DNA of 64,000 nt. Origin: Octopus vulgaris (taxonomy: Eukaryota). The DNA is taken from NCBI GenBank assembly GCA_951406725.2, contig OX597815.1, positions 137,640,001 to 137,704,000 on the forward strand, written 5' to 3'. Both the position numbers and the translations under genes were made by a program. Position 1 is the first letter of the stretch. The number at the start of each line of letters is the position of its first letter. The notes under the pieces are model-generated. The model had not been told where the DNA came from and made no database searches. It was given only the letters and a program-made list of their open reading frames with translations. This document shows positions 33,075-56,922 of the stretch, piece after piece.

Positions 33075-33467
33075 CATGATTGGTGTCCAAATTGGTATCA
33101 GAATCAATGTCAGCTTCGGTATCTGAATTGCAATTGTAGTCAGGTTCCAGCTCTTTAACTAAATCTCTCTGCTTATTTTTACAAAGTATTTCAAAGAAAT
33201 CCTTATGCCACATATCTTTTTTAGAAGGAATTATTTCCAAGAGACATTGGGCAGCAGTTATATCTCCTTTGTTTTCACGTTTCGCATCAACATCATCTTT
33301 GTCTCTTTTATTAATAACTTTAGCAGCTAAGAGCTTATCCAAAATTTCTAAAGTCTTTATTTTTTCAGTCAGCATTTTATGATGTGCAACTATTAATTGT
33401 TTATATACATTGTTAACTTCATCATGACATTTTCTACCATCAATCTTCAAACAAAGTTGTTCATAAC
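33075..33467 (-). CDS. Host exon: end of CARD1 plus MDA5/RIG-I CARD2-like domain and acidic linker
   Basis: Acceptor ctactttcag|GT, donor CATG|gtaaaa; 393 nt, phase 1-1; YKQLIVAHHKMLTEKIKTLEILDKLL..ENKGDITAAQCLLE..WHKDFFEILCKNKQRDLVKEL resembles RLR CARD2. Confidence 0.82.
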
Positions 33468-35409
33468 CTGAAAGTAGCAAGGGAAGTCATGTCTCAGTGA
33501 AATAACCAATCAGATATTCCTGTCAATATATGTTTACTGGTATACAAATGGTATCACAAATAATACTAAATTACAATTCAATTTGTTCTAAAAATTTAAT
33601 TTCATTTTCAAATTGAATACATGACCTTTTTTTTTCATATAGCATCTTACAGATACTGCACTTACCATCTATCAAATTTAAAAAAAGGAGAAAAGGTTAA
33701 ATGTAAAAATGTTAATTTATACTACCATATTATCATCCTATTATATTTTAGAGTTGTATTTGCCTTACAAATAACTTTATCCAAGGCCATGTATAGTAAC
33801 AGAAGAAATTACATTGTAGAAGAGCTATTTAGCCATTTAAGAACAACCTATAGGTCTAGTTTTCTCTTTTGACCACAGTCAGCATTAGTCACTTTTAAAT
33901 TCAATCATTCTGTTTTTCCCTCTTCATCTACATTGTAAATTTATAATATATATTTCATTATTACCAGTCCTATTTTTTTTTTAACACATGCAGTGGAATT
34001 CTAAGTAACCTGACTGCAAAAGTACAAAAGAAACAGTTTATGTTAGTTCTTCAATAGCTAAAATAGATTTTCCACAGTGTAATCGTTGTTCGATTGTAAA
34101 CTATACTTATCATAAAGGAAACTTGTTTCAAAGAGTAGTCTTTCCAGACTCTGTACCATCATATTTCATTACATCAAAGCATACTAACAGGCCAGTGATT
34201 TATTAATTCAAACTAAGACTGGAAAATTGGGACGTACTAATATTGAAATAAAAAGTGAAATAATTTTAACCTATAAAGAGGAAAATAAGTCTTAACATTT
34301 CAAGCAATTGTCTTCTTTCAGAGTGTAAAGGGTGCAAATATGCAAATATTAATCATAATAATACTAAAACTCTAGATGTTTGTTTGTTCCCAATATATCT
34401 CCGAAATAGTATATTTTATCTTAATTTCTTTTACATATATATTTTCATACTTACTTTATGCAGTGTAGTATGAGGTTTCATGATATTTGGACCTCTATTT
34501 ATTAATGAAAACGATTAAACACAATCTTTATTTGTTATTTCTTCATGAAAAAACATGGCTTCTTTGACATCAACACATATACACACATACAGAATACAGA
34601 CATATAATGAATGTCATGGCTTGTGAATCAACACAAACATGCTTTCTACACACAGTCTTCACACTCTATCACTCCCTAAGAAAAAAAAACATTGACTTTT
34701 TGACGTACACACACTCTCACATAGAGAAACATCTTTTTAGTGGAGATTACTTATCATCTCATCATTTCAGGTTTTATTCTATTTCATTCATTTGACATTT
34801 GTAATCTCTTTGTTGCTCTCTATAAAAGCTTATTGCTCACTCTGTGGATTTGTCAGTGTATGGGCATGTGCCTAAGGAATTTCATTAAGGCAATGGAGTG
34901 ATTTAAAAAAGGTATGCAAAATATTTATTTAAATAGCTTACTTTTCTGTTACTAAATGCTTTTGCATACACATGCGCAAACTCACTTAATATGGGGTGGG
35001 GCTAAAGATTTAAAGGTGTCTCCTTTGTTTTTAAGTGCATAGTGCAAAAAAAAAAAGCAGACAAAATCGGTTCAGATGGTGGGAAAGAGGCAAATCATAA
35101 GTTTCCAAAATTTTTTATCATTAAAAAGCTCTAATAATAATAATAATAATAATAATAAATCCTTTTATTGGCCACAAGGGCTGACAAAAATTAATTATAA
35201 CAAAAAAGGGACAAAACAGGAAATGATAATTATAGCAGCGATGCCAATAATGATAACGACAATATTAATAATAATGGTAACGCCTGCGTTGATATCGATA
35301 CTAGAAATGACAGTAATAATAGCAGCAACATTACGATCGATTCACCTAATATCACCCGAGTCACTACCAGAACTACCTCATCTCTCCCTCCAATTAACCA
35401 CTGAGGAAC

Positions 35410-36860
35410 CAATAACTGCAACTGCAGATCCCGGACAGATTGCTCGCTGCAAGCCCAATGCAGAAAATTCAATGTCATATACCAATGCACTGTTCACAAC
35501 ATGGCAAATAATTCTGTAGCTACTACTTTGATTCTAACACCAATTTTAAACAAAGGTATTATGCACATTTGAACTTGTTTAAATATAAAGAGAATAGTAA
35601 TTCCACATTACTAGCCAGCCACATACACCATCTAATTAAAAGAAAAATACATTATAAACTTTCCTGGGCTATAATAGACTCAAGTACCCCATATCAGAGT
35701 CAACACTCTAGTTGCAGACTTTGTTTAAAAGAAGCTCTCAAAATTCTAACCCTCAACTTACCATAATTGCTTAAATAAGTATGAGTCCTTCAATATGTGA
35801 AAGCACAAATTCTTCTGCACTTTTAAATTCTTTCATAAATATAAATGTAAGCTCGCCTCCCTACAAACAGTACCCACATACATACCCCTATGATCATTAA
35901 CGCATACCCCTTCTATATCTCTATAACTCTTATTTCTATCTTATGTCTTATCTCATCACACTATAAGATAAATGTTAATTCTTTCATTTATCCTCAATTT
36001 ATTTTAAACCTTAACCCCCAAAATCCCCTAATATAAACCCCTAGCTCGTAAATAATTTAATATTCAACTAGCCTTTCCTTTCTTGACCACCTACACACAC
36101 ACAGCCCCATTGTTAAAAAGTAATTCTATAGCCACTGACCTTAGCTGGGACAGACACTAGCAATTACTACCAAACGTCCTCCCCAACAATTTTAGACTTT
36201 GAAACTGCCAGACATCTACTACTCTCTTTAAATTCCTTTCATTTCGCTATACTTTTTTAATCTATTTTTTTACCCTATCTTCCTCTACTTCCTCATTCTC
36301 ACTCTTATCTTTTCAGCTACCCCATACATAATTCTTACACAACATACACATATATACATTACTTTATCATATAGCCAATCCTTAAAATTCCCCCTACCTC
36401 ACTCTATTCACCCTTCTTGCTATTTCTTTTCTTTTCTATACTTTTACCAATTACCAGCCACCTCTGCTAACATTCTGTTATTGAACATTGATATGTTTGT
36501 ATCTTTTTCTTGGGACGTCTATTATATAAGGACTTCAACCCACACGGATATATGCAGGATTATACCTAAGGACTCATGTGTGGTTTCTTCGCAAAGTTGA
36601 ACAATGAACTTTTATGCCTCTTTCTTCTTCTCTCTTTCCATCTCCTTATTCTTTAACTCCTTCCTCTATGTTATCATCTTATTGATATATACCATTCTCA
36701 TTTTCCATATTTTTTCCCCCAACTTGTCTCTGATGACGGAATATCCCATACTCGAGGATATCCTAGAATCAGCTGTAAGATGTTGAATTTATTCCTGTAA
36801 TAATATTGTATATGACTTGAGATGTTTGCCTTGCCTTAATGTTTGACATCCTGTTTAACA
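35410..36860 (+). mobile_element. Penelope-like element remnant: GIY-YIG endonuclease, pyrimidine-rich 3' UTR and degenerate hammerhead
   Basis: CNCRSRTDCSLQAQCRKFNVIYQCTV, NFKQRYYAH, STLLASHIHHL..LSWAII..PY..CRLCLKE motifs typical of PLE endonucleases. Confidence 0.8.
36726..36781 (+). ncRNA. Degenerate type I hammerhead ribozyme (PLE terminus)
   Basis: GTCT-CTGATGA-CGGAATATCC..GGATATCCTA-GAATC-AGCT-GTA-AGAT; the GAAA core is mutated to GAAT. Confidence 0.65.
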
Positions 36861-36864
36861 ATTA

Positions 36865-37722
36865 CTAGCAGAATGTTGCCAGCTCTGGACTCTCGGCGTT
36901 GCTCGGGGCTGAATTGCTTGAAAGTACTGTTAATGATTGCACTGAATTATGATGATTATTCAGGCAAATATTGATATAAGTTTACGGTGGGAGATAAGGA
37001 CTTAACGATCAAACGTGTGCCATTGCATTGTTTTGGGGGAACCAAATTTCTGATGAGCATTATAGGGGCACCAACTTTAAGTTTGAGAAAGTGTGGTGGT
37101 AGTCCGGGGTGCTCAAAGGAATTGAGTACCTCTATTGGATAGTTGATGACGTCCTCTGGGTCAGGAGTTGTATCGATAGACTGATATACATAGACTTCCC
37201 CAGGAATGAGTTTTAGCATTTCATCATTAATATGGTGAACAGTTTTATTCCTCGGGGCCAGTATAGCCTTTTGGCCAATCCAATCCATATTCTGATAATT
37301 AGCTTGTAGATCTGGGAACACTGCATCTCTGAGATCAGAAGGCGTCTTAACAATGTTACAAATGGAATCGATGGCAATATTACCATTTTCATCCTCTGGT
37401 ATTTTGCCTTCGCCAAGTGCAAGGAGGGTGTGAGGAAATGCTGCTGATGTGATATTACGTTGCATATGAGCACGCATATTGGTGTGAAGTTTGAGAGTTA
37501 CTTCCCTTTATTTAAAAAAATATGCATTAAAATGGAAAAAATGATGGTAAATTATTTGTAAAATCATCAACTCATCGTAGACGCGCGCTAATACCCAGAA
37601 GGGCTCGATATGAATCACGACTATAAGATACCCAGTTTTGGTTAAACTGCATCGCAAAATGTGGGAGTAGTTAGGAATCTAAATCGGAGTAGACAGACAC
37701 ACAACCTTTCTTTTATATATAA
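36865..37722 (-). mobile_element. Non-autonomous Helitron with a PIF1-type helicase fragment (36956-37500)
   Basis: NMR..AILAPRN..PPHFLKLKVGAPIMLIRNL..CNGTRL; 3' CTAG followed by T at 36865 with an upstream GC-rich CCGAGCAACGCCG motif; 5' end resembles TCTATATATAAAAG. Confidence 0.85.
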
Positions 37723-37984
37723 ATATTTTCGTCCTAAAAAACTTTGTATGGATTGAATGGTTACCTCTATGGAAATATATACACGCACATTATACATACA
37801 TGTGTGTATAGATGAATATATAAATACATTTAAATATCTATATACACTTTTGGGCGATCTTTCTGTTTCTTAGAGATAACTTTATCCCGTCCGATTCGCT
37901 CCAAAATTTACAGGGACATGTAGAATGAGGTGATGATGCTCGTGGGCTAGCTTAGAAATCCCTATCTTAAAAGGTGTGGTTGCT

Positions 37985-38518
37985 AGGGGCCATCTTCCTC
38001 ACTCACCCTATTTCCTCCAGTACCCTGTCACTCCTCTTCATTTGACAAGCCACTACGGTTATTTAATGTAAAGTCTTCCTCAAATCACTCTCTCGCTATT
38101 TACTCTCTTCCAAGAACATTTTCACTCACTCTTATCTCTTAGCTTCCCATACATTTTACTCATGTATCTATCAGCGTCATAGACAGAAACAAATATTACA
38201 TCGCCATCGCATTCTATTGTCTACCTGTCAACACACACACAGTGAATTACTTTCACTTTATTTGTTGCACACTGTGTGTGTGCGTGTGCGTGTGCTGTAT
38301 CCCACACTAAGAAAAGCATTTGACTCATACACCACAATGTGAGTTTTCTCTAAATTTTGCTTAATTGGGGTTGAAATTTTAAAAAGTGGACCTGGCAAGA
38401 CCCGATGCATTCTACTCTTAAAAATGCTAGGTAAATTGTAATTGAAGAAATCCTATATTGTAGATTTCTATAAGAGACAAAGGGAGGCAGATAAAATCTG
38501 CCTTTTATAATAAGAGAT
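37985..38518 (-). mobile_element. Probable Helitron-like non-autonomous fragment (5' end)
   Basis: Minus strand begins A|TCTCTTATTATAAAAG followed by the palindrome GGCAGATTTTATCTGCC; 3' limit uncertain. Confidence 0.45.
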
Positions 38519-38685
38519 ATACCCAATGCATTGGAAATCTGCAATGGTTCCATAACTACCATTTCGGCCATAATCTTGGATCCCTAGTAATCTGTTACAG
38601 CACTTACCTAGCATACCTAATCGTTTAGATCACCTGTGAACTAAACCCCCATACTTTGTATATATATATAATATATATATATATA

Positions 38686-39385
38686 AGCATGACCTTCAAA
38701 CAGTGGGCCCCTCCAAAGCAATGACTAGTGACTGGGACCTCTGGAAATATGCTGTGCTTGAGAAGACTCAGCAAGAGCAAGTGAGACCATAACCTTGTGG
38801 CCTATGCCAGGGGTGTAACCAGTCCACTTATGCGTGCCTTTCCTTCACTGGACACTAAACTCTGCTTGTGAAGACTTGTTGAGGCAAGTGAAATCGAAAA
38901 CAAATTCGATGACTGGCATCCATGCTAGTGGAGCGCTAAGAGTACCATATGAGTGAGAATGTGGCCAGAGCAACAAGCTGGCCTCCGTGTCGATGGCACG
39001 TTAAGAACACCATTCGAGCGTGATCATTACCTGCGTTGCCTTACTAGCACTTGTGCTGGTGGCACGTGAAAAAACATTCGAGCGAAGTCGTTGCCAGTGC
39101 CGGTGGACTGGCTCCTGTGCAAGTTGCACATAAAAATCACAATTTGAGCATGGCCATTGCCAGTACTGCCAGAATGGCCCTCGTGCTGGTGGCACATAAA
39201 AGCACCCACTACACTCTCGGAGTGATTGGCGTTAGGAAGGGCATCAAGCTGTAGAAACTCTGCCAGATCAGATTGGTGCCTGGCGCAGCCATCTGGTTCG
39301 CCAGACCTCAGTCAAATCGTCCAACCCATGCTAGCATGGAAAGCGGATGTTAAACGATGATAAGGATGATGGTGATGATGATGAT
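38686..39385 (+). mobile_element. RTE 3' fragment (last codons plus 3' UTR)
   Basis: KHDL..AMTSDWDLWKYAVLEKT; UTR repeat units; (GAT)n tail. Confidence 0.88.
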
Positions 39386-39581
39386 ACATACAAGGGGCTT
39401 CTTTCAGTTTCCATCAACCAAATCTACACACAAGGTTATGGTTAGCCTGGGGCTATCACAGAAGACAGTGGCACAAAATGCCATGCTGTAGCCATTATAG
39501 TCATTTTTTTAATGTGCTGGGAATTTTGATTTTGTTGTTGTTTTTTTAGGGTTTTTTTAAAACTATATAAATTGGAAAATA

Positions 39582-39998
39582 CTCTCTTTTTTTACTTGTT
39601 TCAGTCATTTGACTGTGGCCATGCTGGAGCACCGCCTTTAGTTGAGCAAATCGACCCCAGGACTTATTCTTTGTAAGCCTAGTCTCTTTTGACGATCCGC
39701 TAGGTTACGGGGACGTAAACACACCAGCATCGGTTGTCAAGCGATGTTGGGGAGACAAACACAGACACATAAGCATATACACACACTTACATATATATAT
39801 ATATATTATATATATATATATATATACATATGTACGACAGGCTTCTAACAGTTTCCGTCTACCAAATCCACTCACAAGGCTTTGGTCGGCCCGAGGCTAT
39901 AGTAGAAGACACTTGCCCAAGGTGCCGTGCAGTGGGACTGAACCCAGAACCATGTGGTTTGTAAGCAAGCTACTTACCACACTGCCACTCCTATGCCT
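39582..39998 (-). mobile_element. tRNA-derived SINE (CORE-like body, internal TA tract, LINE-A-like 3' end)
   Basis: A box TGGCAGTGTGG, B box GGTTCAGTCCC, CORE-like ACCTTGGGCAAGTG, 3' GGCGGTGCTCCAGCATGGCCACAGTCAAATGACTGAAAC; a partial copy lies at about 39390-39490. Confidence 0.88.
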
Positions 39999-40179
39999 AT
40001 TTAGATTTCTCAATTAAAAAGACACTGAGGTACACAAGATTAAGAATCACTGCACTATATGAAGATCAAGCGATATTCTTATAATCCAATAAATTTTAAG
40101 ATTAATTAATCATTAGTTATCACAAGCTAATCATTGAATTGTAATTCCTGTTTCAGCTCACATTTTCTCTAATGACATT

Positions 40180-40893: not shown

Positions 40894-41013
40894 CAGCATC
40901 AGAAAGAGCTTGATATAAAGTTTGAGATTTTCCTTGATACGAACTATGCTCATACATATGCATAACCTTTCCAATGTCAATTCTGTTGAATTCAATGTTG
41001 TTTGAAGGTAGAT
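40894..41013 (-). CDS. Host exon: second half of an RLR-type CARD1
   Basis: Acceptor cttattacag|AT, donor GCTG|gtaaag; 120 nt, phase 1-1; LPSNNIEFNRIDIGKVMHMYEHSSYQGKSQTLYQALSDA(G); splices to give ALSDAG|YEQL, compare RIG-I ALDHAG|YSGL. Not in the ORF track. Confidence 0.72.
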
Positions 41014-41318
41014 CTGTAATAAGATAAGATATGATAAAATAATATCAATAATAACTGTTTCTAGCATAGACACAGAGTCAGAAATTTGAGGGATAGGGTT
41101 CAATTTACTTAACAACACTTTATATTACTGATCCCCACAAAAGGATGAAAAGAAAGATAAAGAGCTAGAAGAAATTTTATAAGATATTTTATTGACTGCT
41201 CTAACAATTCCACCAATTCACCCATCAAAATAATAACGACAATAATTTTTTCTACTATAACCACAAGGCCTGAAATGTGTGGGGAGAAGGATAGCTGACT
41301 GCATCAACCCCTGTATAC

Positions 41319-41355
<37 letters not shown>

Positions 41356-41358
<3 letters not shown>

Positions 41359-44322
41359 ACATGTTGGACGGCATGTCGGGGGCTTCCATGGCGTTCATGG
41401 AGGCTACGGTTTTGGCTCTCGTAATGAGGAGGGAACCAGGTTGCTGGAGTTCTGCGATGCAAATGACCTTATGGTCTGCAATACCAACTTCAGGAAACCC
41501 ACCTCTCACCTAGTCACCTACCGTTCTGGCAGACACACTAGCCAGATTGACTACAACCTTGCCAGAAAAAGGGAAAGAGGGCTGCTTATAAATGCCAAAA
41601 CCTTTCCAGGCGAAGAAAGTACTCCTCAACATAGATTAGTAATTAGCGACTTCAGGATCAGAGCTAAATGGTTGCCCAGAAGAAGACCAGCTTGGAAGAG
41701 AAGGGTCTGGAAGCTTAAAGATCCTGCAAATGGACAGAGATTTAGAGACATACTACTCGAAGCCTTTGACGAAATAGAAGGGGATATAGCTTCACTTAAT
41801 GTGGAAGACAACTGGAGATTTCTACGGGACAATCTGCTGTCAGCCACTGACCAGATCTGTGGATGGAGCAAAGTACCATCTCGACCCAGAGTAACGTGGT
41901 GGTGGAACACTGTGGTTGACAGGGCTATTAGACAAAAGAGACAAGTTTGGAAGGACTGGAAGAACGGTGGTAGCAGGGAATTGTATCAGACAGCCAGAAG
42001 GGAAGCTAGGAGACAGGTTTATTTAGCCAGAGGGGAAGCGGATAAGAAAAAATTTGCCAATGTTCTGAGCCGTGAGGATGAAAGACTTGAGGTATTTCGT
42101 GTTGCAAGACAGTGTGTGAGAGAGAATCGTGATGTGGTAGGAGAGAAATGTGTCCGCATGGATGATGGTTCACTTGCGCTAAATGAGGATGCAAAGAGAG
42201 AGTTAAAGCAATTAGAAGCATGAAGACAGGGAAAGCCCCAGGCCCATCAGGAATTACTGCAGAGATGCTCAAAATATCTGGCAGTGTCGGCTATAACCTA
42301 GTCACCCGTATAGTCAACCAGGTGATACACGAAGGAGTCATATCCAATGACTGGTGTAGCAGCATATTAGTCAACTGCTACAAAGGTAAAGGTGACGCCC
42401 TAGATACAAATAATTACAGATGTATCAAGCTGTTGGATCAGGTAATGAAGTTTACGGAGAGGGTCATAGCCCAACTAATTAGAGAGAGAGTTAGTTTAGA
42501 TGAGATGCAGTTTGGGTTCGTGCCAGGGAAAAGTACCACTGATGCTATATTCCTGGTAAGGCAGCTGCAGGAGAAATACCTAGCCAAAGATAAGACCCTG
42601 AACCTGGCTTTCGTTGACATGGAGAAAGCCTTTCACAGGGTCCCCCGATCCCTTATCTGGTGGTCAATGAGGAAACTAGGGATAGATGAATGGCTGGTGA
42701 GGGCTGTGCAAGCCATGTACAGAGATGCCGTAAGTAAGGTTAGGGTTGGCAACATGTACACAGAAGAATTCAAAGTAGAGGTTGGGGTCCACCAGGGTTC
42801 AGTACTCAGCCCCCTCCTATTTATCATAGTCCTCAAGGCAATTACGGAGGAATTCAAGACAGATTGCCCCTGGAAGCTCCTCTATGCTGATGACCTTGCT
42901 CTAATTGCTGAGTCACTATCAGAACTGGAGGAGAAGTTCCAGGTGTGGAAGGAGGGTTTAGAATCGAGGGGCCTTAGAGTCAACCTAGCTAAAACCAAAG
43001 TACTAATAAGTAGGAAGGTAGACAATCCACAAATGTCTTCAGGAAGATGGCCCTGCTCGATCTGTAGAAAAGGTGTAGGTAGAAACTCTATAAGATGCAC
43101 CAAGTGTAAGCTATGGACACATAAGAGGTGCAGCAATGTCAAAGGTAGGCTAACTGGGAAGATAGTTTTTGTATGTGGCAGATGCTCGGGAGCATTAACC
43201 TCCGAAAATCTTCAGAAAACAACTTCTGTCACTTTCCAGGGGGAAAAAATAGAAGTAGTTGATAGCTTCCGTTATCTAGGTGACCAAGTCAGTAGTGGGG
43301 GTGGGTGCATTGAAAGTGTAACTGCTAGAATAAGAATAGCCTGGGCAAAGTTTAGGGAGCTCTTACCTCTGCTGGTGACTAAAGGCCTCTCGCTCAGAGT
43401 AAAAGGCAGACTGTATGATGCATGTGTACGAACAGCCATGCTACATGGCAGTGAAACATGGGCCGTGACTGCTAAGGACATGCGTAAGCTCGCAAGAAAT
43501 GAAGCCAGTATGCTCCGATGGATGTGTAATGTTAGTGTACATACTCGACAGAGCGTTAGTACCCTGAGAGAAACGTTGTACCTAAGAAGCATCAGGTATG
43601 GTCATGTGGCGAGAATGGATGAAGATAGGTGTGTGAAAAAGTGCCAATCCCTAGCAGTTGAGGGAACCCGTAGAAGGGGTAGACCCAGGAAAACCTGGGA
43701 CGAGGTGGTAAAGCACGACCTTCGAACTTTAGGCCTCACTGAGGAAATGACCAGCGACCGAGACCTTTGGAAATATGCTGTACATGAGAAAACCAGGCAG
43801 GACAAGTGAACCCAACCCACTTATGCATGCCTTTCCTCCCTTGGACACAAAGACCTGTTGAGGCAAGCGAAGTCGATATCGAACCTCATCCGACGACAGG
43901 CACCCATGCCAACCCCCTTTGCTTGCAAAGACATGTTGGGGCAAGTGAAATCGAAATCGGAATCGAAATTGAACTGGCACTCGGCAGATGCCAGGACCCC
44001 TGGACTGGTGGTACGTAAAAAGCACTATCCGAATCGTGGCCGATGCCAGCGCTGCCTCGACTGGCTTCCGTGCCGGTGGCACGTAAAATGCACCAATCCA
44101 ACCGTGGCTATTGCCAGCCTCGCCTGGCACCTGTGCGGGTGGCACGTAAAAAGCACCCACTACACTCACGGAGTGGTTGGCGTTAGGAAGGGCATCCAGC
44201 TGTAGAAACATTGCCAGATAAGACTGGAGCCTGGTGCAGCCTTCTGGCTTCCCAGATCCCCGGTCGAACCGTCCAACCCATGCTAGCATGGAGAACGGAC
44301 GTTAAACGATGATGATGATGAT
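41356..44322 (+). mobile_element. RTE-clade LINE, 5'-truncated, with an internal deletion/frameshift near 42200; EN, RT, PHD finger and 3' UTR
   Basis: GHVG..RNEEGTRLLEFC..SQIDY (EN); QFGFVPGKSTTDAIF, GVHQGSVLSPLLF, LYADD (RT); ORFs 41279-42223 and 42220-43809; (GAT)n tail running into TA. Confidence 0.96.
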
Positions 44323-45962: not shown

Positions 45963-46002
<40 letters not shown>

Positions 46003-46161: not shown

Positions 46162-46227
<66 letters not shown>

Positions 46228-46727: not shown

Positions 46728-47651
46728 ATGTCCAGAACCTGGAGAAGTAACGAATTGGCGTTGTTCCTGAGAGCCTGGCAATGCGCCGACGGAGATAATC
46801 CGAACAACATAATTACAGCTGCGCTGAAGAACAGTGGATATGAAAGAACAATAGTTCAGATAGAGCGAAAGAAGCAGGAGTTTATACGCTCCTATGCACT
46901 CATAAGATCTCACATTGGCACGCTTGATGCCATCTTTGACAACGAACAAAGTAAAGATGGGAAGGATGGAGACGCGGGTGCTGATGAAAGAAGTCACCCC
47001 CACTTGGTAGACACCCAGGAAGAAGATTCAAGTGAGAAACCTGCCTGGGAGGTAAACCCAAGTGCAAGTGCTCCTACCAGCACCAAAAGCCATAGAGATG
47101 AAAGAGTCAAAAAAGAAATAAAAGGAGGAAAAACTAAAAGAAAAACAAAAGATGAAACAGCCAAAGAAGGAAAAACTAAAACTCAAACAAAACCAAAAAG
47201 TGAAACAGCCAAGGATAGAAGCAAACCTGACTATCCATGTACCAAAAAGGATACAATCAGAAAGTGCACACGAATGTGTAAATTCTACCTGAAAGGTGTC
47301 TGCTGGCATGGAGAGGAAGGTGCAGGCTTCATAAGACCCTCCACAAACATGAAACAGGTCTGAAATGAACTACCAAAAGGAAAAGGAATGGACCACGCAC
47401 CACCTGCCCCAAAACGGAGGTACGCAGATGCGGTGCGTGCTACAAACCGCCAACATATCATTGAAAGGGCAGCTGCTGAACAAGAATCTTTTTTGTGCAT
47501 GGCACAAAAGATTGTACAGCAGCTAACCTGGCTCCATCAAACTCAAGCTCGCAGATGGGACTATCCACAATATACAAGACCACCACAACAAATAGACCCA
47601 AGGTGGACACTGCCGGCAACAGCATACACTTCACCTCGATGCTCCTACTGA
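46728..47651 (+). pseudogene. LINE ORF1: Myb/SANT-like N-terminus, Lys-rich linker, damaged CCCH finger; in-frame TGA at 47361
   Basis: ORFs 46728-47363 and 47388-47651 share a frame; TWRSNELALFLRAW..ITAALKNSGYERTIVQIERKKQEFIRSY fits the trihelix Myb/SANT pattern; the 3' half is homologous to A3. Confidence 0.75.
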
Positions 47652-50599
47652 ACATCAGAGGACTGCAAACACTCAGTAACAGGACAAAAATCCCGTTCTT
47701 GAGAGACTTTGTTGCATGCAATCAAGCCTTATGCATAGCACTTACGGAAACGCACCTGAAACCGGACATAGCAGATGCGGAATTACACATACCACAGTAT
47801 GTTGTACTACGGACCGACAGAAAAGAAAGGAGTCATGGAGGAGTTGCTATGTACATCCGTGAGGACCTCACACCCCAGGTCCTTTTGTCATACTCAAACT
47901 CGGTGTGTGACACACTAATTGTACATATAAGGCAACTTGATGTAGTTGTGTGTGCTACATATCGCCCTCCAGATGCCCCAAGCCATGTGGGCAAGTTTGA
48001 AGACTGCCTTATAAAAATAGAAGAAGTTCTAATCACATTAGAACAACACATAAGTGTACTTCTTATGGGAGACTTCAATCTACCCAATGTCAGATGGCCC
48101 GAGGGCCTTTCTCTCCCAGGAATGACAAGATGTGAACGAGGACAGGCAAGGTCCCTCCTGAACCTCATCAACACCCTGTACATGGAGCAAGTAATACTCC
48201 AACCAACCAGGGCAGGTAACACACTGGATCTCTGCTTCACAAATAATATGGATCTCATCCATAATGTGAAAGTGACACCGACACTACTCTCGGATCACAA
48301 CATGGTAGAGCTGACCATGTACGGGCCAAAGGAAAGCATGGACATGCAGCCTACAAGAAACCCTCAGAATCTTTCCAGCTTGAACTTCCATAAGGCAAAC
48401 TGGAAACAAATTGAGAAAGAGATCCTCAAACAAAACTGGCCTGAATGTCTCTCCTCGCCAGACATCGATGTGAAACTTCAACAATTCATGTCTGTAATGC
48501 AAGCCATATGCTACAAATGTGTCCCAGAGAGAAAGGCCACTGTACACAAGAACAAAATCCCCAGAGAGAGGAAAATTTTAATGAGACGGCGTACAAAAAT
48601 TTCAAATCGCCTAAACAAACAAATTGAAAGCAGTGAAAAGTCCCGCCTGAAAATAAAACTGTTGGAAATTGAAAAATGTCTGCAACTCTCCCATGAAAAG
48701 GAAAGAGCAGACAAAGAAGCCTGGGCTATAGACAACATAAAATCTAACCCCAGAGCTTTCTACAGGTATGCCAAAGAAACAGCTAAGGTGCACTGTAGGA
48801 TAGGGCCACTCCTTGAAAAGGATGGCACACTCACAGGAAAACCAATGAGGGCAAGTGAAATACTGAATGAGCAATTCAAGAGTGTTTTCACTCCACCCCT
48901 TGGGCATTTCCAAATCACCAATCCAACTGACTTCTTTACCACTGCAGATATAAAATCAGAGGCAGCGACGATAGATTACATCGATATAAAGGAAGACGAT
49001 GTAATAAAGGCTATAGATGAAATGAAAACAGAATCAGCTACTGGCCCCGATGGATTCCCGGCAATCCTCCTAAAAGTATGTAAGAGAGTCCTAGCAAGAC
49101 CACTGCAGTTCCTCTTTCAGAACTTCCTTGCAACTGGCAAACTTCCAAGAAAACTGAAGGAAGGTAAAATATGCCCTATTCATGAAGGAGGTAGCAGAGC
49201 GGAGGCCAAGAACTACAGACCTATCTCTCTGACCTCACACATCAGCAAGGTCATGGAACGAATAGTCAGAAGGAAACTAATCACCTTCCTTGAAGAAAGT
49301 GACTTGCTGCCTGACACCCAACATGGTTTCCGACCAGGAAGAAGCTGCTTAAATCAGCTCCTACAACACTATGACTGGGTGCTGAAACGACTGCTCAACC
49401 ACTCAAATGTGGAAGTGATATATCTCGACTTTGCAAAGGCCTTTGATAAAGTCGATCATGGAATGATATGTCACAAACTGCGTGATCTTAGCATAGTTGG
49501 AAAACTGGGAGAATGGCTTCATGACTTTCTGAAGGATAGAAGTCAGGTGGTAGTAGCCAATGGGGCCACTTCCATTAACACGCAAATAGTGAGCGGTGTT
49601 CCACAGGGCACTGTTTTGGGACCACTACTGTTCATAATGGCCCTCTCAGACATGCCCTCAGCCACGCAGAGAGCCACGATCACAAGTTATGCAGATGATA
49701 CAAAAGTTTCACAGGCAATACAGAACCCTGAGGACACTAAACGCCTGCAATGTGAGCTCGACAAAATATACAAGTGGGCTGAAAAGAATAGCATGCAGTT
49801 CAATGCTGAGAAGTTTCAAGCTTTATGCTATCAGCATGCAAAACTAAATGCAATGCCCAATGAATACACTGGACCCGAAGGAATTGCAATCCCAGAGGCA
49901 CAATCAGTGCGTGACCTGGGTATTTACATGAGTGATGACGCAACCTTTCGTGTACATGTTGCTAAATTGGCAATGAAATGTAGACGACTGGCCGGATGGA
50001 TTCTTAGAACCTTTAGAACAAGAGAACAAGAAACCATGATGGTCCTCTGGAGGACACTTGTCCTAAGCCACTTTGACTATTGCTCTCAGCTATGGTCACC
50101 ATCCAGTGTCAAGTTGATCACAGAACTTGAGGCGATCCAACGTAGCTACACGAAGAAGATAGCCTCTGTGCAGCATATAAGCTACTGGGAAAGACTCAAG
50201 AGATTAAAACTATATTCCTTGGAGCGTAGGCAAAAAAGATATGTCATAATATACATCTGGAAGATCCTGGAAGGACTTGTCCCAAACTTTGGCATCGAGA
50301 GTTACACAAATGCCAGAACTGGGCGCCACTGTGTGGTGCCAAGGACTCCAAATTTGCCATCAAGATGTAGGACAAGATACTGTGATAGCCTGGGCTTCCG
50401 AGGCCCACAGCTCTTCAATATCCTCCCGAAGAACCTAAGAGACCTGTATGGGGTGGATGCAGATGTCTTTAAAATGAAACTGGATCTCTTCTTGTCAGGT
50501 ATCCCAGATGAACCAACTTCACGGCAGGAGGTGCAGATGAGGGCAGCTGCATCGAACTCTCTCATGCACCAAATGGCAGTTGCTAAAAAGCATTCGTGA
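47495..50599 (+). CDS. LINE ORF2: APE endonuclease plus reverse transcriptase, uninterrupted (1034 codons)
   Basis: NIRGL, ETHL, YRPP, GDFN, LDL, SDHN; NYRPISLTS, QHGFR, YLDFAKAFD, GVPQGTVLGP, YADD. Confidence 0.95.
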   Translation: MHGTKDCTAANLAPSNSSSQMGLSTIYKTTTTNRPKVDTAGNSIHFTSMLLLNIRGLQTLSNRTKIPFLRDFVACNQALCIALTETHLKPDIADAELHIPQYVVLRTDRKERSHGGVAMYIREDLTPQVLLSYSNSVCDTLIVHIRQLDVVVCATYRPPDAPSHVGKFEDCLIKIEEVLITLEQHISVLLMGDFNLPNVRWPEGLSLPGMTRCERGQARSLLNLINTLYMEQVILQPTRAGNTLDLCFTNNMDLIHNVKVTPTLLSDHNMVELTMYGPKESMDMQPTRNPQNLSSLNFHKANWKQIEKEILKQNWPECLSSPDIDVKLQQFMSVMQAICYKCVPERKATVHKNKIPRERKILMRRRTKISNRLNKQIESSEKSRLKIKLLEIEKCLQLSHEKERADKEAWAIDNIKSNPRAFYRYAKETAKVHCRIGPLLEKDGTLTGKPMRASEILNEQFKSVFTPPLGHFQITNPTDFFTTADIKSEAATIDYIDIKEDDVIKAIDEMKTESATGPDGFPAILLKVCKRVLARPLQFLFQNFLATGKLPRKLKEGKICPIHEGGSRAEAKNYRPISLTSHISKVMERIVRRKLITFLEESDLLPDTQHGFRPGRSCLNQLLQHYDWVLKRLLNHSNVEVIYLDFAKAFDKVDHGMICHKLRDLSIVGKLGEWLHDFLKDRSQVVVANGATSINTQIVSGVPQGTVLGPLLFIMALSDMPSATQRATITSYADDTKVSQAIQNPEDTKRLQCELDKIYKWAEKNSMQFNAEKFQALCYQHAKLNAMPNEYTGPEGIAIPEAQSVRDLGIYMSDDATFRVHVAKLAMKCRRLAGWILRTFRTREQETMMVLWRTLVLSHFDYCSQLWSPSSVKLITELEAIQRSYTKKIASVQHISYWERLKRLKLYSLERRQKRYVIIYIWKILEGLVPNFGIESYTNARTGRHCVVPRTPNLPSRCRTRYCDSLGFRGPQLFNILPKNLRDLYGVDADVFKMKLDLFLSGIPDEPTSRQEVQMRAAASNSLMHQMAVAKKHS

Positions 50600-50761
50600 A
50601 GTAAAACCATGTAGCAACACCAAATAGTGGTGCCCCAGCATGGCCACAGCTCGTGAGTTGAAACTAGTATCAATCAATCAATATGTATATATACATATAT
50701 ATATATGTATACATATATATATACATATATATATGCGTATACATATATATATATATACATA

Positions 50762-50825
50762 TCATCATCATCATCGTTTAACGTCCGTTCTCCATGCTAG
50801 CATGGGTTGGACGGTTCGACCGGGG
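50762..50825 (-). mobile_element. RTE 3'-terminal mini-insertion in a TA tract
   Basis: (CAT)n-CGTTTAACGTCCGTTCTCCATGCTAGCATGGGTTGGACGGTTCGACC. Confidence 0.85.
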
Positions 50826-50859
50826 ATATATACATATATAAATATATATGTATACATTT

Positions 50860-51650
50860 CGTTTTTCTTGCTTCAGCTCAGAGCTGCGGACATGCTGATG
50901 CACTGCCGTTTTTTGCTACACTGTTTTTACGAAGCGCCTCGTCTAATATGTGGCACTTGGTGAAGAATGGACTTTGATATAGCTACTCTCATTTGCACCT
51001 CTTACCATGAGGTAGGTTCATCTGGTACTCTCGACAGGAAGATGTCCAGCTTTGATTTAAAAACCACTACATCTACTTTGTGCAAGTTGCTCAGACTCTT
51101 TGGGAGAATATTAAAAAGCTGTGGGCCCTTGAAACCCAGGCTGCACCAATCCTATGTGAAGGAGAATGCAGACAAAGAAGCCTGGGTTATAAAAAACATT
51201 AAATCAAACCCAATGGCCTTCTTTCATTACATGGTATGATATGCCACAAACTGCGTATCATGGTATGATACGCCACAAACTGCGTGACCTTGGCATAGCT
51301 GGAAAACTTGGAGTGTGGTTACATGACTTCCTGAAAGATAGGAGTCAGGCAGTAGTGGTTAATGGAGCCACCTCTATGAACACACAAATAGTGAGCGGTG
51401 TTCCACAGGGCACTGTCTTGGGACCACTGCTTTTTATAGTGGCTCTCTCAGATATGCCCTCAAATGCCCGGATAGCCACTCTGGCAAGCTATGCAGACGA
51501 TATGAAAGTCTCGCAGAAAATACACAACCCCAGCGATGTTGCACACCTGCAGCAGGAGTTGGACTCAATCTACAGATGGGCTGAGGATAATAATATGCAG
51601 TTTAATGCTGAAAAATTTCAGGCCCTGTGCTACCAGCATCCAAAACTAAA
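50860..51650. mobile_element. Older family-A-related LINE (A7) with inversion: 3' end on minus strand (50860-51145), RT fragments on plus strand (51150-51650)
   Basis: Minus: SLGFKGPQLFNILPK..PDEPT plus 3' UTR; plus: ADKEAWVIKNIKSNP, then HGMIRHKLRDLG..YADD. Confidence 0.85.
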
Positions 51651-52526
51651 TATTAAGTTCATTCTCCATGGGACTGACATGCTGGTAAACACTATCCAGT
51701 TTGTGGAATGAGCATTCTTATAGTATATTTTTAAGAAATAACATAGGTGGTTATTGCAGGTAGGTTGTAATGGAATACTACTCTGACATTCACTGGTACT
51801 GTTGCTAGGAAAAGCAGACTTCATATCATTATTATTCAGGACCAGAGTACTATATGGGTAAGCTAAAGTTTGGTTCCTAATATCATAATTATTGCTTGTT
51901 TTTTTTTTTTTTGGGGGGGGGGGGGTCGGAATTATTAAGTTTTCAACTGTTTATTACAGAAAATTACCAAAACCATAAATGTGTTCTATTATTTTTGTAT
52001 ATGTCTATGTTTCTTGACTGATGGAGATAAATTAGAACAATTGTCATGCTATTGAAGAAGAAACACATATCCACAAATCTCCTCTTATCTACAGACAATA
52101 AGCCTGTCCTTTTCCTTAATGGCATGTTCACTTTGGAGAATTCTTGATTCTTGAGATAATCTCCCCTTCTCATATAGAGTTGGTCTTACATGCAATTTAG
52201 TAATGTGACACATCATCTGGAGGCTAGGTTAATTTTAATAAATCAAGAATTTGTGTTGCATGTTATTTGTTTATGTTGTTCATAAACATTCAACAAACCA
52301 CACTGAGATATTTCTCTGAGCTGCTCATTTTTGCTTACATTATCCTTTAACAGGTTGGGTCAGTACCATAATGTTCATGGTTACATAGATACAGACTACT
52401 TTCTAACTCATCAGATGCTTAGGACTTGCATGAGAGAAATATAAATGGTTTCCTTGCAAGAATATTTGGAGTCCCCATTATTCAGTTCAAATCACATGGA
52501 TTAGTTGGTTGAGAACTGATAGCAGA

Positions 52527-52905
52527 ATCATCATCATCATTGTTTAACGTCTGCTTTCCATGCTGGCATGGGTTGAACGGTTTAACTGGGGACTAGCAAG
52601 CTAGATGGTTGCACCAGGCTCCAGCCTGATCTAGCAGAGTTTCTACAGCTGGATGCCCTTCCTAACGACAACCACTCCGAGAGTGTAGTGGGTGCTTTTA
52701 CATGTCACCAGCACGAGGGCCAGTCAGGCAGTACTGGCAACGGCTATGCTCAAATAGTGTCTTTTACATGTCACCTGCACAGGAGCCAGTCCAGTGACAC
52801 TCGCTTCTCGAATGTTGTTTTTCACATGCCACCGGCACAAGTGCCAGTAAGGCAATGCTGGTAATGATCACGCTCGAATGGTGCTTTTTACGTGCCACTG
52901 GCAAC
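52527..52905 (-). mobile_element. RTE 3' UTR fragment
   Basis: (CAT)n tail, CTACAGCTGGATGCCCTTCCTAAC motif and UTR repeat units. Confidence 0.85.
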
Positions 52906-53511
52906 GAATATTCTATCTATTATATCATATATTACAGGAGATAGTCTAGTAGCAACAACTGGTCCACACTGTGTAATATTTGATAACACAATAATGTCAT
53001 AGAGGGATGGTAAGGAATGTATCTGCTGTATCATGCAGCAAGGTACAAAGTTTGGTGTTGCTAGGTTGCATATCAACATAAGGAAGCTAAGTGTTATGTT
53101 GTGCATAGATGTGTGTGATTATTTTTAATTATTCTTAAAATATTACTTTAAAGTATTATTAATATACTTAAGCAACTCCATTTTTGCACACATTGCTCAG
53201 ATGATTTTTCAAAACAAACACATGTCAATATTTTCTTCATCACATCCAAATCATATTTCAAAATATATTCAAACAATAGACAATTCAAGAAAAAGCAGGC
53301 TTGAATTAACAGCTGAATGACTGGAAAAATGAAACTTAGAGTAGAAGAATAAACTTGACAAACAGTGCATGAATGCATGCACGTGTGTGTGTGTGTGTGT
53401 GTGTTTAATATTAATTGTGGTTATTTACTCATAGTAGCAAAAGCATACTTCCAAAGTTACATATCATATGAAAAGTAGTACTCTAGTAGTAAATAAAATA
53501 TTTTAACTTAC

Positions 53512-53640
53512 TTAGATCAAGCGATAATAGAAGCCAAATATCTCGTGGGTGGACAGTTTCGAGTATAACCTGACGCAATTGCATGATCATTTCAGCCCTG
53601 TTATTTGACACGCAATTTACTTCATCTTCACAGACAGGGA
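53512..53640 (-). CDS. Host exon: linker plus first half of an RLR-type CARD1
   Basis: Acceptor tttctttttcag|TC, donor CTAA|gtaagt; 129 nt, phase 1-1; EMIMQLRQVILETVHPRDIWLLL, compare RIG-I [23 protein letters not shown]. Confidence 0.72.
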
Positions 53641-54409
53641 CTGAAAAAGAAACATTTTTTAGAGAGAGAGTATTTTTATTTTGCATCCATTTGAGTCTAT
53701 GTTAGTATGAGAGAAAGTTTACTGTGGTAATCATAGCTCTAATGTCTTATTTAGCAGCAGGATGCCTTCTAAATACTAATTATACAATAATTAACTACAA
53801 AAACCAGTATTTTATGAGTCAAATAAACAGAAGCAATACGCTTACATCTTCAGCATTAACTTCACACTCTTCACAACCATTCGCTTCCATTTACATGGGA
53901 AAATGTTTTCTTGTTCTTTAAGAATTTAAATTTAAGTTTTGACATTTAAATGATGGATGCTTGGGAAAAGTTAACTTAATGATAAGGATGGTAATATCTA
54001 AGTTAACATTGATAAGGTAAGCATTCAAATAGTACCCTAGCTGGTGAATTGGTTAGAAAGGTTGTGGCAATTTTCTAAGGAAACAGTTCTCAAGTCAGGA
54101 GCAAAGTGAAAAGATAAACTAAAGGTTTTAGGCAGACATCAGGAGGTGAGGCATTTTATAGTTGTTACTTTGTGTAACTACAAGTCAGCTCTGCTTGATT
54201 AAACTTATGATCAAAAGAGGAATCCAATAGACTAAAATTATGTGATATGAGAATTTCAGCACCCATGACAAATTTCACCTGCTACAATCTGTGTGTGCTT
54301 TGATGCACCAAGCACCTAAATGAGAGGATCTCTCGAAGTTAATAATGCAGTATTTGGTGTTTTAACAAGGTATCCATGTTAAGTTGGACATAATGATTAC
54401 TTTTTGGTA

Positions 54410-54900
54410 TTAATACTGCTTCCATCACTAATAATTAAATCCAACTATGTTCATGTACTTTTTCGATGCTTACATAGGTTAGATAGAATTTATCAAGACA
54501 GATTTTCAATAACCAGATGCCCTTCATATCATCAACCCTCACTTGTTTCCAAACAAGGTAATATTTTCCTGTGGTTAGACAGGTTTTTCACAGAAGACAA
54601 CAACTGAACAAATGATCAATCTTGATAATGCTCATTTATAGTCATCACATGATGTCTAGACATGGGTAAATGCAAACACACTGACACATGGTTTAGTGGT
54701 TAGAGTGTTGGACTTATGATTGCAAGATCATAGTTCCAATTCCTGGAGCAGGTGGTGCATTGTATTTTTGAACAAAACTCTTTATTTCAAGTTACAATCA
54801 CTTTGACATCTGATATGTGGCACACCATAGAGCAGTACAGTCATTGTCAATTTGATGGAGGAAATGAGTGCAGGTTGTTCAGCATGACATTGTAAAATCT
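54410..54900. mobile_element. Old SINE/RTE-tail remnants
   Basis: CCAGATGCCCTTC motif near 54515; tRNA-like head TGGTTTAGTGGTTAGAGTGTTGGAC..GTTCCAATTCC at about 54690-54745. Confidence 0.45.
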
Positions 54901-54949
54901 TCATCAGTAATTTATGACAGGAGAGTTCACCATATAAATATATATATAT

Positions 54950-55400
54950 ATATTAATGGAATGAGAAGGCAACAAGAATTACATAATCAACTTCATTGGC
55001 TTACAGCTGTTTTTGGTATAAGAAGCAGTGCACTCACAGCTGAATGCTTATGCATCACCTTATAGTCTCCTTGGAGCCATTTAAAATAAAGTGTATGTTT
55101 ATTTGGGAAATCATTTGAATACGTATCTGCTACAGACCTAATCCTGAATAGGTCTAATCCTGAATATTTCCGGGAGTGGCCTCTCTCCTTCAAACTGTAT
55201 ACACCTTTACTTAAGAATTTTTATCATTTTAAAGGTGACCTTTTCCATACTCTCCAAAAAAAGACATACACTTTATTTTAATGAGTCTGAGGGAGTTATA
55301 AGGTGATGTACAGGTAGTCAGCACTGAATAGCAGAAATAGCTGAAAGCCAATGAAGTTGATTACATAATTCCTGTTCCCTCGTCATTCAATTAATTTTAT
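54950..55400. repeat. Fold-back element with ~150 bp diverged inverted arms
   Basis: TAATCAACTTCATTGGCTT..CATCACCTTATA..AAAATAAAGTGTATGT (54950-55110) is mirrored at 55255-55400. Confidence 0.8.
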
Positions 55401-55449
55401 ATTATGCTCTGTAGTCACATAACACTTTATTCTGAAACATATACTCATT

Positions 55450-55845
55450 ACTCTTTTACTTGTTTCAGTCATTTGACTGCGGCCATGCTGGAGCACCACC
55501 TTTAGTTGAGCAAATTGACCCCAGAACTTATTCTTTCTAAGCCTAGTACTTATTCTAGCAGTCTCTTTTGCTGAACCGCTAAGTTACAGGGATATAAACA
55601 CACCAGCATCATTTGTCAAGCAATGGTGGAGGGACAAACACAGATACATAAACATATGCACATATATATATATATACATATATACGATGGGCTTCTTTCA
55701 GTTTCCAACTACAAAATCCACTCACAAGGCATTGGTCGGCCCGAGGCTATAGTAGAAGACACTTGCCTAAGGTGCCATGCAGTGGGACTGAACCCGGAAT
55801 CATGTGGTTGGTAAGCAAGCTACATACCACACAGCCACTCCTGCT
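55450..55845 (-). mobile_element. tRNA-derived SINE, same family as 39582-39998
   Basis: Same head, CORE-like body, internal TA tract and 3' end; a partial copy lies at about 55950-56050. Confidence 0.88.
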
Positions 55846-55918
55846 TGATATGTATAATGAATTCTAACAACAGCTTATTAGTGTTGCTATGCCAAAGCAA
55901 AATCATAAAATATATATG

Positions 55919-55950
<32 letters not shown>

Positions 55951-56589
55951 CTTATACAATGGACTCCTTTCAGCTTCTGTCTACCAAATCCAATCGCAAG
56001 GTTCTGGTTGGCCCAGGGTTATAGTAAAAGACACTTACCCAAAGTGCCAAATTTCAATAATAGATTACTTTATACCAGAGGGGATATTATAAACAAATTG
56101 AATTTCTGATGGTTCTGTTGAAATCAGGATATCTCAGAAAGAGTAAACTGAGAGTGGTGATCTCTTTCTATTTTCCAGCTAAGATAGAGAACCGGAACAT
56201 GGCAGTACGAGCTACTGAAATGCTCATTAATTAATAGCTACTCAACAAAAACTGATATTGGTCTAAACATTATCATCGGCTTCACATAGTCAACCTAATT
56301 TTTCTATGCAGGCATGTCTTACAACTTTTCTCAGATGCCTTATGGTCTCAAGTCTGCCTTGAATCCTTCTTCCCAGAACTACCTGGTCTCCTGATACTCG
56401 CAATACTTTCCACTACAAACACAAAGCACCTCACTAGCTTACATTCTCCATTCAAACTACATTTTTTAAACCAGCCCAATCATCTCACATGCACAAATCT
56501 GACAAAATCTTTTCTAGCCCAAAATGAGAAACATAGGATAGAAATATTTGAGAAGATCTAACTGAAAAAGAAATATATATTTGTCTTAC

Positions 56590-56922
56590 CAGCGTTTTGG
56601 ATTTTTTTCCACAAATCATCTTTGCCTGGGATATTAAGATATTTGTCAAGGTCTTTCATCAGATATGATAAGGTAGAAGGAAAATATGCAAATAATAAAA
56701 TAGCAGCTGAATTGGGTCCTTCTTTTTTTTCAGTAAGTTTTATATCCTCCAGTTGACTCTCTAAAATAGTTTCCATAGTCTTCAAATGATTTGCAAATCT
56801 GATAATGTTTAATTGACCTTCAGTTATTTCAGTGCTGAATATTTCAAATATATTGCAGTAGGAGTTAAAATCATTTGTTTGTTCTTGCATAAATGCATAG
56901 AGTTTGCAAATTGAGTTAAATT
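56590..56922 (-). CDS. Host exon: additional, diverged CARD2-like domain
   Basis: Acceptor tctttatttcag|AA, donor GCTG|gtaaga; 333 nt, phase 1-1; EDIKLTEKKEGPNSAAILLFAYFPS aligns with DDVDAKRENKGDITAAQCLLEIIPS of exon 33075-33467 and with RIG-I AEKNNKGPMEAATLFL. Confidence 0.7.

What the first reader, a model, noticed from the sequence alone, without database searches (positions are those of the whole stretch)
33075..56922. Hidden RIG-I-like gene with an expanded CARD array spread over TE-filled introns
Seen: four GT-AG exons, all phase 1-1, splice in frame on the minus strand: CARD2-like (56922-56590), CARD1 first half (53640-53512), CARD1 second half (41013-40894) and CARD2 (33467-33075). 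Known: human RIG-I exon 2 spans residues 36-80, ending at DHA-G|YSG; the junction here, SDA-G|YEQ, falls at the same position. Canonical RLRs have two CARDs. Inference: at least three CARDs, and probably four from a duplicated 2CARD module, since the first exon starts like exon 33467 and needs an upstream CARD1 beyond 64000. Symmetric exons would allow in-frame CARD skipping. No helicase exon is visible, so this could be a multi-CARD RLR or a CARD-only adaptor/decoy; the last exon can also read through to a stop at 33031.
Basis: partly seen in the sequence, partly recalled or inferred. Interest (0 to 1): 0.75.

Follow-up and report, generated by a model that had tools for sequence, protein, structure and literature searches.

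The report
Octopus RIG-I-like sensor with four CARDs
These four exons belong to an already annotated octopus antiviral RNA-sensor gene whose signalling tip appears to be doubled (four CARD domains instead of two), which likely changes how easily it or with what partner it raises the alarm.

Summary
The four exons are real, at the stated coordinates, GT-AG and phase 1-1. They are exons 3-6 of a 16-exon, 206-kb gene that NCBI already annotates (Octopus vulgaris RIG-I-like helicase, 1121 aa). Two more exons lie upstream and ten helicase/CTD exons downstream, beyond a 75-kb intron. So the gene is not hidden, not CARD-only and not split between paralogs. Pfam passes at most two of the four. The layout is shared by O. 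sinensis, O. bimaculoides and Argonauta. Mya arenaria RLRs carry a separate, younger 2x2CARD duplication. One junction is joined in contigs of 4 of 4 runs. The helicase-proximal module is the more canonical one and holds 14 of 19 vulgaris/sinensis substitutions; the outer module is strongly diverged. How the extra module works is inferred, not shown. My searches found no paper describing a four-CARD RLR. New variant of a known kind.

The parts
56590..56922 (-). Exon 3 (333 nt, phase 1-1), aa 78-188: end of CARD1a and all of CARD2a (outer module)
   Evidence: CARD2 profile 26.8 bits, 0 of 500 shuffles; model aa 94-191 matches Apaf-1 CARD at Z 8.5, rmsd 2.5, 92 aligned; no Pfam hit alone
53512..53640 (-). 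Exon 4 (129 nt, phase 1-1), aa 189-231: linker and first half of CARD1b; counterpart of exon 1
   Evidence: profile alignment
40894..41013 (-). Exon 5 (120 nt, phase 1-1), aa 232-271: second half of CARD1b; counterpart of exon 2
   Evidence: joined to exon 6 in 4 of 4 runs; CARD1b 13.8 bits on CARD1 profile, 0 of 500 shuffles, Argonauta ortholog 29.3 bits
33075..33467 (-). Exon 6 (393 nt, phase 1-1), aa 272-402: end of CARD1b, CARD2b and acidic linker
   Evidence: Pfam CARD_2 E 8.8e-15, 54.9 bits; MDA5 CARD2 E 1.2e-5; 100% identical to P0001
33031..33074 (-). Read-through of the exon 6 donor to a stop codon; possible end of a CARD-only isoform
   Evidence: one contig 32878-33104 in run X1, depth 27 against 71 for the exon; same extension ends the old O. 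bimaculoides fragment model P0006
1..33074 (-). 5' part of intron 6 (75,309 nt in all), LINE fragments and TA microsatellites; exon 7 lies 42 kb below the window start
   Evidence: 43% tandem repeat
56923..64000 (-). 3' part of intron 2; exon 2 lies at window-equivalent 76459-76328
47480..50599 (+). Intronic LINE ORF (1039 aa, endonuclease plus reverse transcriptase look; label from recall), one of many copies in the window
41261..43809 (+). Intronic LINE of a second type (two ORFs; RTE-like label from recall)

Best explanation
The exons encode the middle of a full-length octopod RIG-I-like RNA helicase whose N-terminus holds two 2CARD modules in a row (CARD1a-CARD2a-CARD1b-CARD2b by profile and predicted fold), and it likely works as a dsRNA sensor in which the inner module does the usual signalling while the outer module would add binding valency. 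Shown: one 16-exon gene; helicase, Hel2i and Zn-binding CTD; two full 2CARD matches; repeated exon pattern. Inferred from RIG-I/MDA5: at rest CARD2b is held on Hel2i; RNA binding frees the CARDs; they assemble into the helical seed that nucleates a CARD-adaptor (MAVS-like) filament. Since RIG-I needs four 2CARD units for that seed, a chain with two units would need fewer RNA-bound molecules. The origin is likely a tandem duplication of exons 1-3 before Octopus and Argonauta split, after which the outer copy diverged fast. Confidence: about 0.9 for four CARDs in one full-length RLR, about 0.5 for the valency role.
For: Gene: 16 exon matches in order on one strand, C2:137749125-137543386; Pfam DEAD, Helicase_C, RIG-I_C, RIG-I_C-RD, CARD_2 all over cut-off; contigs stop exactly at 33075 and carry 863, 1287 and 2208 further bases in 3 of 4 runs, as splicing to the helicase exons would give. 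Four CARDs: 2CARD HMM from 32 non-octopod RLRs hits aa 1-189 (40.1 bits, HMM 3-188) and 200-384 (89.5 bits, HMM 4-192); CARD1/CARD2 profile scores alternate 16.7/2.5, 3.5/21.6, 9.3/2.7, 24.3/73.5; outer module 43.4 bits against a best shuffle of 11.3, 0 of 500; same in P0004, P0005, P0022. Intron 2 (EA|E78) and intron 5 (DA|G272) fall in the same column, introns 1 and 4 within about one column (alignment). Outer module model pLDDT 94.3; aa 1-89 match RIG-I CARD1 at Z 10.0, rmsd 1.6. Tetramer and Hel2i mechanism: passages of PMC4763080. Oyster RLR CARDs bind oyster MAVS: passages of PMC5557890. A second, independent 2x2CARD origin in Mya suggests the layout is useful.
Against: No functional data. 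No adaptor was identified in this genome. The modules are only 18-22% identical and the tree neither shows nor rejects them as sisters (p-AU 0.498), so in-place duplication is inferred mainly from exon structure. The outer module sits on a very long branch (2.78 against 1.12) and lacks the tryptophan that the inner module and the six canonical rows shown have near the CARD2 end, so it may not fit one helical seed with the inner module. Its model matches RIG-I 2CARD only domain by domain (whole-module TM about 0.4, rmsd about 9, no Foldseek E <= 0.001), and the model leaned on an alignment with 34 canonical RLR rows, which is partly circular. The inner module was not folded well (full-length model pLDDT 32.6); CARD1b is the weakest unit (13.8 bits). 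Helicase motif III reads TAV, not TAS. Two of the three window junctions were not tested with reads.
Confidence: 0.6

Rival explanations
1. Same four-CARD protein, but the outer module has a new job: it recruits a different partner (another death-fold adaptor) or shields the inner module, rather than adding to one seed.
For: Long stem branch of the outer module, then strong conservation inside Octopus (83% and 78% vulgaris/bimaculoides against 65% and 73% for the inner module); different predicted domain packing; a cluster of 12 other CARD_2 matches on C24 offers candidate partners.
Against: No partner identified; predicted packing of two domains is unreliable evidence; both units keep their CARD1/CARD2 identity.
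Confidence: 0.3
2. The outer module is mainly a splicing-controlled brake or decoy: exon 2 skipping or read-through at 33075 makes damaged-CARD, three-CARD or CARD-only forms that tune the full-length sensor.
For: O. bimaculoides isoform X2 lacks exactly exon 2 (aa 34-77), like the RIG-I splice variant lacking 36-80. In this genome that skip gives TAA, and O. sinensis isoform X2 starts at the next Met, residue 89. Read-through contig in run X1; the 14-15 aa extension is nearly the same in O. bimaculoides.
Against: Isoforms are NCBI models whose support I did not see. The read-through contig is listed in 1 of 4 runs (table cut), and that run has low cover over all 30 bins, so unspliced RNA or DNA can explain it; P0006 is half of a split model in an old fragmented assembly. 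No AATAAA between 31501 and 33031, only two ATTAAA.
Confidence: 0.12
3. The gene is a CARD-only adaptor, or the 56.9-kb exon belongs to a separate tandem paralog.
For: No helicase exon within the window; old O. bimaculoides annotation had a CARD-only and a CARD-less model (P0006, P0008).
Against: One copy of each of 16 exons in order; one RIG-I CTD match in the genome search; single-chain models in four octopod species; contigs leaving at 33075.
Confidence: 0.03

Closest known systems
Vertebrate RIG-I (DDX58) and MDA5 (IFIH1)
   Same: CARD1-CARD2 module, DECH helicase with Hel2i, CTD with four Cys; best PDB matches are duck and human RIG-I (E 1e-88 to 1e-82); exon 2 covers the second half of CARD1.
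   Different: Two modules instead of one; motif III TAV; about 30% identity; adaptor and ubiquitin control unknown.
Mollusc two-CARD RLRs, e.g. oyster CgRIG-I-1 (PMC5557890) and the types of Yao et al. 2022 (PMC8998645)
   Same: Same family and helicase/CTD core; Yao lists the O. sinensis ortholog XP_029658486.1 with exon lengths 100,132,333,129,120,393.
   Different: The text read (Results part 1, section 2.4, legends, supplement part 1) names Death, CARD, CARD-CARD, DED, IG, SAM and CASc N-termini and no four-CARD type; the figures themselves, including types X1-X4, could not be seen.
Mya arenaria RLRs (P0040, P0174-P0176)
   Same: Two full 2CARD modules before helicase and CTD.
   Different: Modules 44% identical, about 210 aa apart, grouping with a single Dreissena module (99/99): a separate, younger duplication.
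RIG-I SV (exon 2 skipped, dominant negative; via PMC2860555, PMC3900705)
   Same: O. bimaculoides isoform X2 lacks the equivalent exon.
   Different: The octopus form would keep an intact inner 2CARD; in O. vulgaris the skip gives a stop codon.

Membership tests
RIG-I-like receptors (RLR) | SF2 DExD/H helicase with motif I, DECH motif II and motif VI | tested here: met
   PTGSGKT, DECH, QKRGRAR in P0001; Pfam DEAD 4e-23, Helicase_C 1e-14
RIG-I-like receptors (RLR) | Hel2i insertion domain | tested here: met
   PF18119 E 1.9e-8, 34.8 bits over cut-off 23.2
RIG-I-like receptors (RLR) | C-terminal Zn-binding RNA recognition domain | tested here: met
   PF11648 E 5.7e-19; genomic exon C2:137543515-137543832; CTSC and CDNC pairs
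RIG-I-like receptors (RLR) | Helicase motif III TAS | tested here: inconclusive
   Reads TAV in Octopus and Argonauta against TAS in RIG-I/MDA5; effect on ATPase coupling unknown
RIG-I-like receptors (RLR) | dsRNA binding, RNA-stimulated ATPase, signalling through a MAVS-like adaptor | not testable with these tools
   Needs experiment; no adaptor identified in this genome
Canonical two-CARD RLR (RIG-I/MDA5 type, V1) | Exactly two N-terminal CARDs | tested here: not met
   Two full 2CARD matches
Ortholog of vertebrate RIG-I rather than MDA5/LGP2 | Groups with RIG-I in a helicase/CTD tree | not tested
   No helicase tree built; PMC8998645 section 2.3 reports no RIG-I/MDA5/LGP2 split in lophotrochozoans
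CARD-only protein or adaptor | Reading frame ends after the CARDs, no catalytic domain | tested here: not met
   Exons 7-16 follow; contigs leave at 33075 in 3 of 4 runs; a minor read-through form is not excluded
Death-fold CARD (outer module) | Six-helix bundle matching solved CARDs | tested here: met
   13 helices over 191 aa, pLDDT 94.3; Z 10.0 and 8.5 for the two halves, the 22 best rows all CARD or death folds; alignment-driven, so partly circular

The most novel reading that the evidence does not exclude
Molluscs have repeatedly (octopods, Mya) built RLRs with a pre-linked pair of 2CARD modules, so that two RNA-bound sensors rather than four can seed the adaptor filament; octopus, with one such RLR found, tunes that threshold by skipping phase-1 exons and keeps two long-lived alleles of the inner module under pathogen pressure.
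Probability: 0.2. Interest if true: 0.75.

Novelty: new variant of a known kind. Interest (0 to 1): 0.48.

Why it matters
RLR signalling is taught as a two-CARD module that must tetramerise. A natural 2x2CARD sensor, kept from Octopus to Argonauta and evolved separately in a clam, gives ready constructs to test how CARD valency sets the antiviral threshold. It also shows that Pfam-level counts miss diverged CARDs, so invertebrate RLR architecture tables undercount them, and that the CARD-less O. bimaculoides RLR used in a 2022 survey is half of a split gene model. The gene itself is known, which limits the surprise.

Tried and rejected
Pfam on single exons finds only exon 6; 0 families for the other three. 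Full-length fold with a 6-row alignment failed (pLDDT 32.6) and was not used. Foldseek gave no match at E <= 0.001. ESM Atlas on aa 80-195 gave CARD clusters at 0.84-0.86, a lead only. Generic CARD profiles see only three of four units in P0001 at 6 bits or more. Pairwise module A/B alignment is weak (z 5.1 in O. vulgaris, 3.4 in O. bimaculoides). The tree cannot place the outer module. P0146 came up as multi-module but is one module split in two. No RNA holder is on record as RNA in the run list. No caspase domain was listed near the C24 CARD cluster (0 of 81 matches at 38.8-39.1 Mb). A-to-I editing as the source of exon 5/6 variants was rejected: the four coding changes seen are T>G, G>A, C>G and G>T on the sense strand. 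No squid or cuttlefish ortholog was identified among the hits that were named (20 of the 150 representatives were looked up), so the age of the duplication beyond octopods is open. Paper searches for three/four/extra CARD RLRs and for octopus or Mya RLRs listed nothing that describes this layout; several returned mostly unrelated papers. The scan's earlier findings held nothing.
Full report
Observation. Exon 33467-33075 alone passes Pfam CARD_2 (E 8.8e-15) and matches MDA5 CARD2; the other three pass no Pfam family alone. LINE ORFs cover 22% of the span and the first 33 kb are 43% tandem repeat.

What the gene is. The last exon is 100% identical to a named record, P0001, 'antiviral innate immune response receptor RIG-I isoform X1 [Octopus vulgaris]', 1121 aa. 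Searching the window's own genome with P0001 gave 17 matches: 16 exons in order on the minus strand of C2 (137749125 to 137543386, 206 kb) and one unrelated helicase ORF on C3. The window holds exons 3-6 (aa 78-402). Exons 1-2 lie upstream (window-equivalent 109125-109026, 76459-76328); exon 7 follows a 75,309-nt intron. The protein has DEAD, Helicase_C, Hel2i and CTD families over cut-off and its best PDB matches are RIG-I. One CTD match was found in the genome (counts are lower bounds). So the gene is annotated, complete and not CARD-only. Yao et al. 2022 (PMC8998645; seen: abstract, Results part 1, section 2.4, legends, passages, supplement part 1 of 2; figures not visible) list the O. sinensis ortholog and draw its exon lengths 100,132,333,129,120,393 in Fig. 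[quoted passage not shown]

Transcripts. No listed run is on record as RNA. In 4 of 4 runs laid (four study codes) a contig joins 40894 to 33467 with GT..AG ends; in 3 of 4 a contig stops at 33075 and carries 863-2208 further bases, as expected of splicing to the helicase exons (their letters were not seen); in 1 of 4 a contig reads through the donor (tables cut). The two upstream junctions were not tested with reads and rest on NCBI models of three Octopus species.

Number of CARDs. From 98 N-terminal regions I took the 32 non-octopod proteins with two clear CARDs and built CARD1, CARD2 and 2CARD profiles. The 2CARD profile matches P0001 twice over nearly its whole length (aa 1-189, 40.1 bits; aa 200-384, 89.5 bits). 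Units 1 and 3 prefer the CARD1 profile, units 2 and 4 the CARD2 profile. Each unit beats 500 of 500 shuffles on its preferred profile; nothing scores beyond aa 400. The pattern holds in O. sinensis, O. bimaculoides and Argonauta hians (P0022, 45% identical, its model starting inside CARD1a). Intron 2 and intron 5 fall in the same alignment column, introns 1 and 4 within about one. The outer module folded with pLDDT 94.3 on a 37-row alignment; its halves match RIG-I CARD1 (Z 10.0, rmsd 1.6, 89 aligned) and Apaf-1 CARD (Z 8.5, rmsd 2.5, 92 aligned). Against this: the alignment was mostly canonical RLRs, so the fold is partly imposed; Z values in this range can be common for helical bundles; the whole module matches RIG-I 2CARD only at TM about 0.4 with no E <= 0.001; the inner module has no good model; CARD1b is weak in O. 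vulgaris (13.8 bits) though clear in Argonauta (29.3).

How unusual. Of 173 stored proteins, 71 had a 2CARD-profile hit of 15 bits or more; 9 had two hits or over 230 aa covered: six octopod rows, Mya arenaria P0040 (two modules), Phallusia mammillata P0064 (three CARDs) and one split single module. The Mya modules are 44% identical and group with a single Dreissena module (99/99), apart from the octopod ones, so four-CARD RLRs arose at least twice. The octopod modules are 18-22% identical; the tree neither shows nor rejects them as sisters (p-AU 0.498), so tandem duplication is inferred from exon structure, and gain from another RLR gene is not excluded.

Divergence pattern. The outer module has a long stem (2.78 against 1.12) but is better kept inside Octopus (83%, 78%) than the inner one (65%, 73%; helicase 85%). 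14 of 19 vulgaris/sinensis substitutions lie in exons 4-6, 214 of 1121 aa (Fisher p 3e-7; region chosen after seeing the data). The three exon 5 variants shown give the O. sinensis residues (I243S, G246E, H250D), and both versions occur in 3 of 4 runs. Shared alleles, pooled samples or a collapsed paralog could explain this; I could not tell which.

Splicing. 19 of 21 joins among exons 1-7 keep an open frame; exon 1 to 3 and 1 to 7 give TAA. O. bimaculoides isoform X2 lacks exon 2 in frame, like the RIG-I variant lacking aa 36-80 (passages of PMC2860555 and PMC3900705). O. sinensis isoform X2 starts at Met89, which fits the same skip with a stop; this link is my inference.

Mechanism. Shown: architecture. 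Inferred from RIG-I (passages of PMC4763080: CARD2 held by Hel2i; released 2CARDs form a tetramer that templates MAVS) and from oyster (passages of PMC5557890: RLR CARDs bind MAVS): the inner, more canonical module is the one repressed by Hel2i and engaging the adaptor; the outer module most likely adds valency, with a new partner or a splicing-controlled brake as rivals.

Novelty. The gene is known; seven paper searches listed no description of a four-CARD RLR, but the library lacks most subscription journals and the figures of PMC8998645 (types X1-X4) were not seen. Other papers in those lists were seen as listings only, except passages of PMC3308963, which did not bear on the point. Verdict: new variant of a known kind, interest 0.48.

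Noticed in passing
G000:C24:38852643-39058600 (L004-L012): Cluster of 12 CARD_2 matches over cut-off on both strands within about 210 kb; no caspase domain listed there. Unknown CARD gene array, possible adaptors.
   Followed up: partly
L028:1396-2694 (-), G000:C3:142509285-142510388: Uninterrupted 432-aa ORF of a divergent RLR/Dicer-like helicase (23% identity, DEVH, GLTAS, QMRGRAR); a second helicase of this kind with no CTD match found.
   Followed up: partly
P0006 and P0008 (O. bimaculoides old models): The CARD-less ObiRLR (XP_014769581.1) used in PMC8998645 is half of a split model; the newer XP_052821716.1 joins both halves, so the exon loss drawn for it in Fig. S1 is likely an assembly artefact.
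   Followed up: yes
window 40960, 40971, 40980, 33245 and 33304-33449: Two haplotypes of exons 5-6 in the runs; the alternative letters give the O. sinensis residues, all four shown are amino-acid changes.
   Followed up: partly
P0001 aa 585-587: Helicase motif III reads TAV in Octopus and Argonauta instead of TAS.
   Followed up: no
P0040, P0174-P0176 (Mya arenaria); P0064 (Phallusia mammillata): Other multi-CARD RLRs: two 2CARD modules in several Mya records, three CARDs in a tunicate.
   Followed up: partly
P0085/P0171 (Styela clava), P0033 (Potamilus streckersoni): RLRs with effector-like N-termini: kinase plus Ribonuc_2-5A domain, and a HEPN domain; may be model fusions.
   Followed up: no
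G000 C5:54.15-54.52 Mb, C26:33.70-33.81 Mb, C28:6.29-6.38 Mb, C19:7.04-7.13 Mb: Large tandem arrays of caspase domains each encoded in one open frame (81 matches genome-wide).
   Followed up: no
window 36956-37507 (-) and 58271-58828 (-): ORF fragments that look like a PIF1-type helicase of a rolling-circle transposon (label from recall, not tested).
   Followed up: no
Fig. S1 of PMC8998645, Agr_RLR5 row: Chiton RLR with exon lengths 136,135,333,170,52,155,369 before the helicase, which may be another doubled module; column reading of the PDF is unsure.
   Followed up: no
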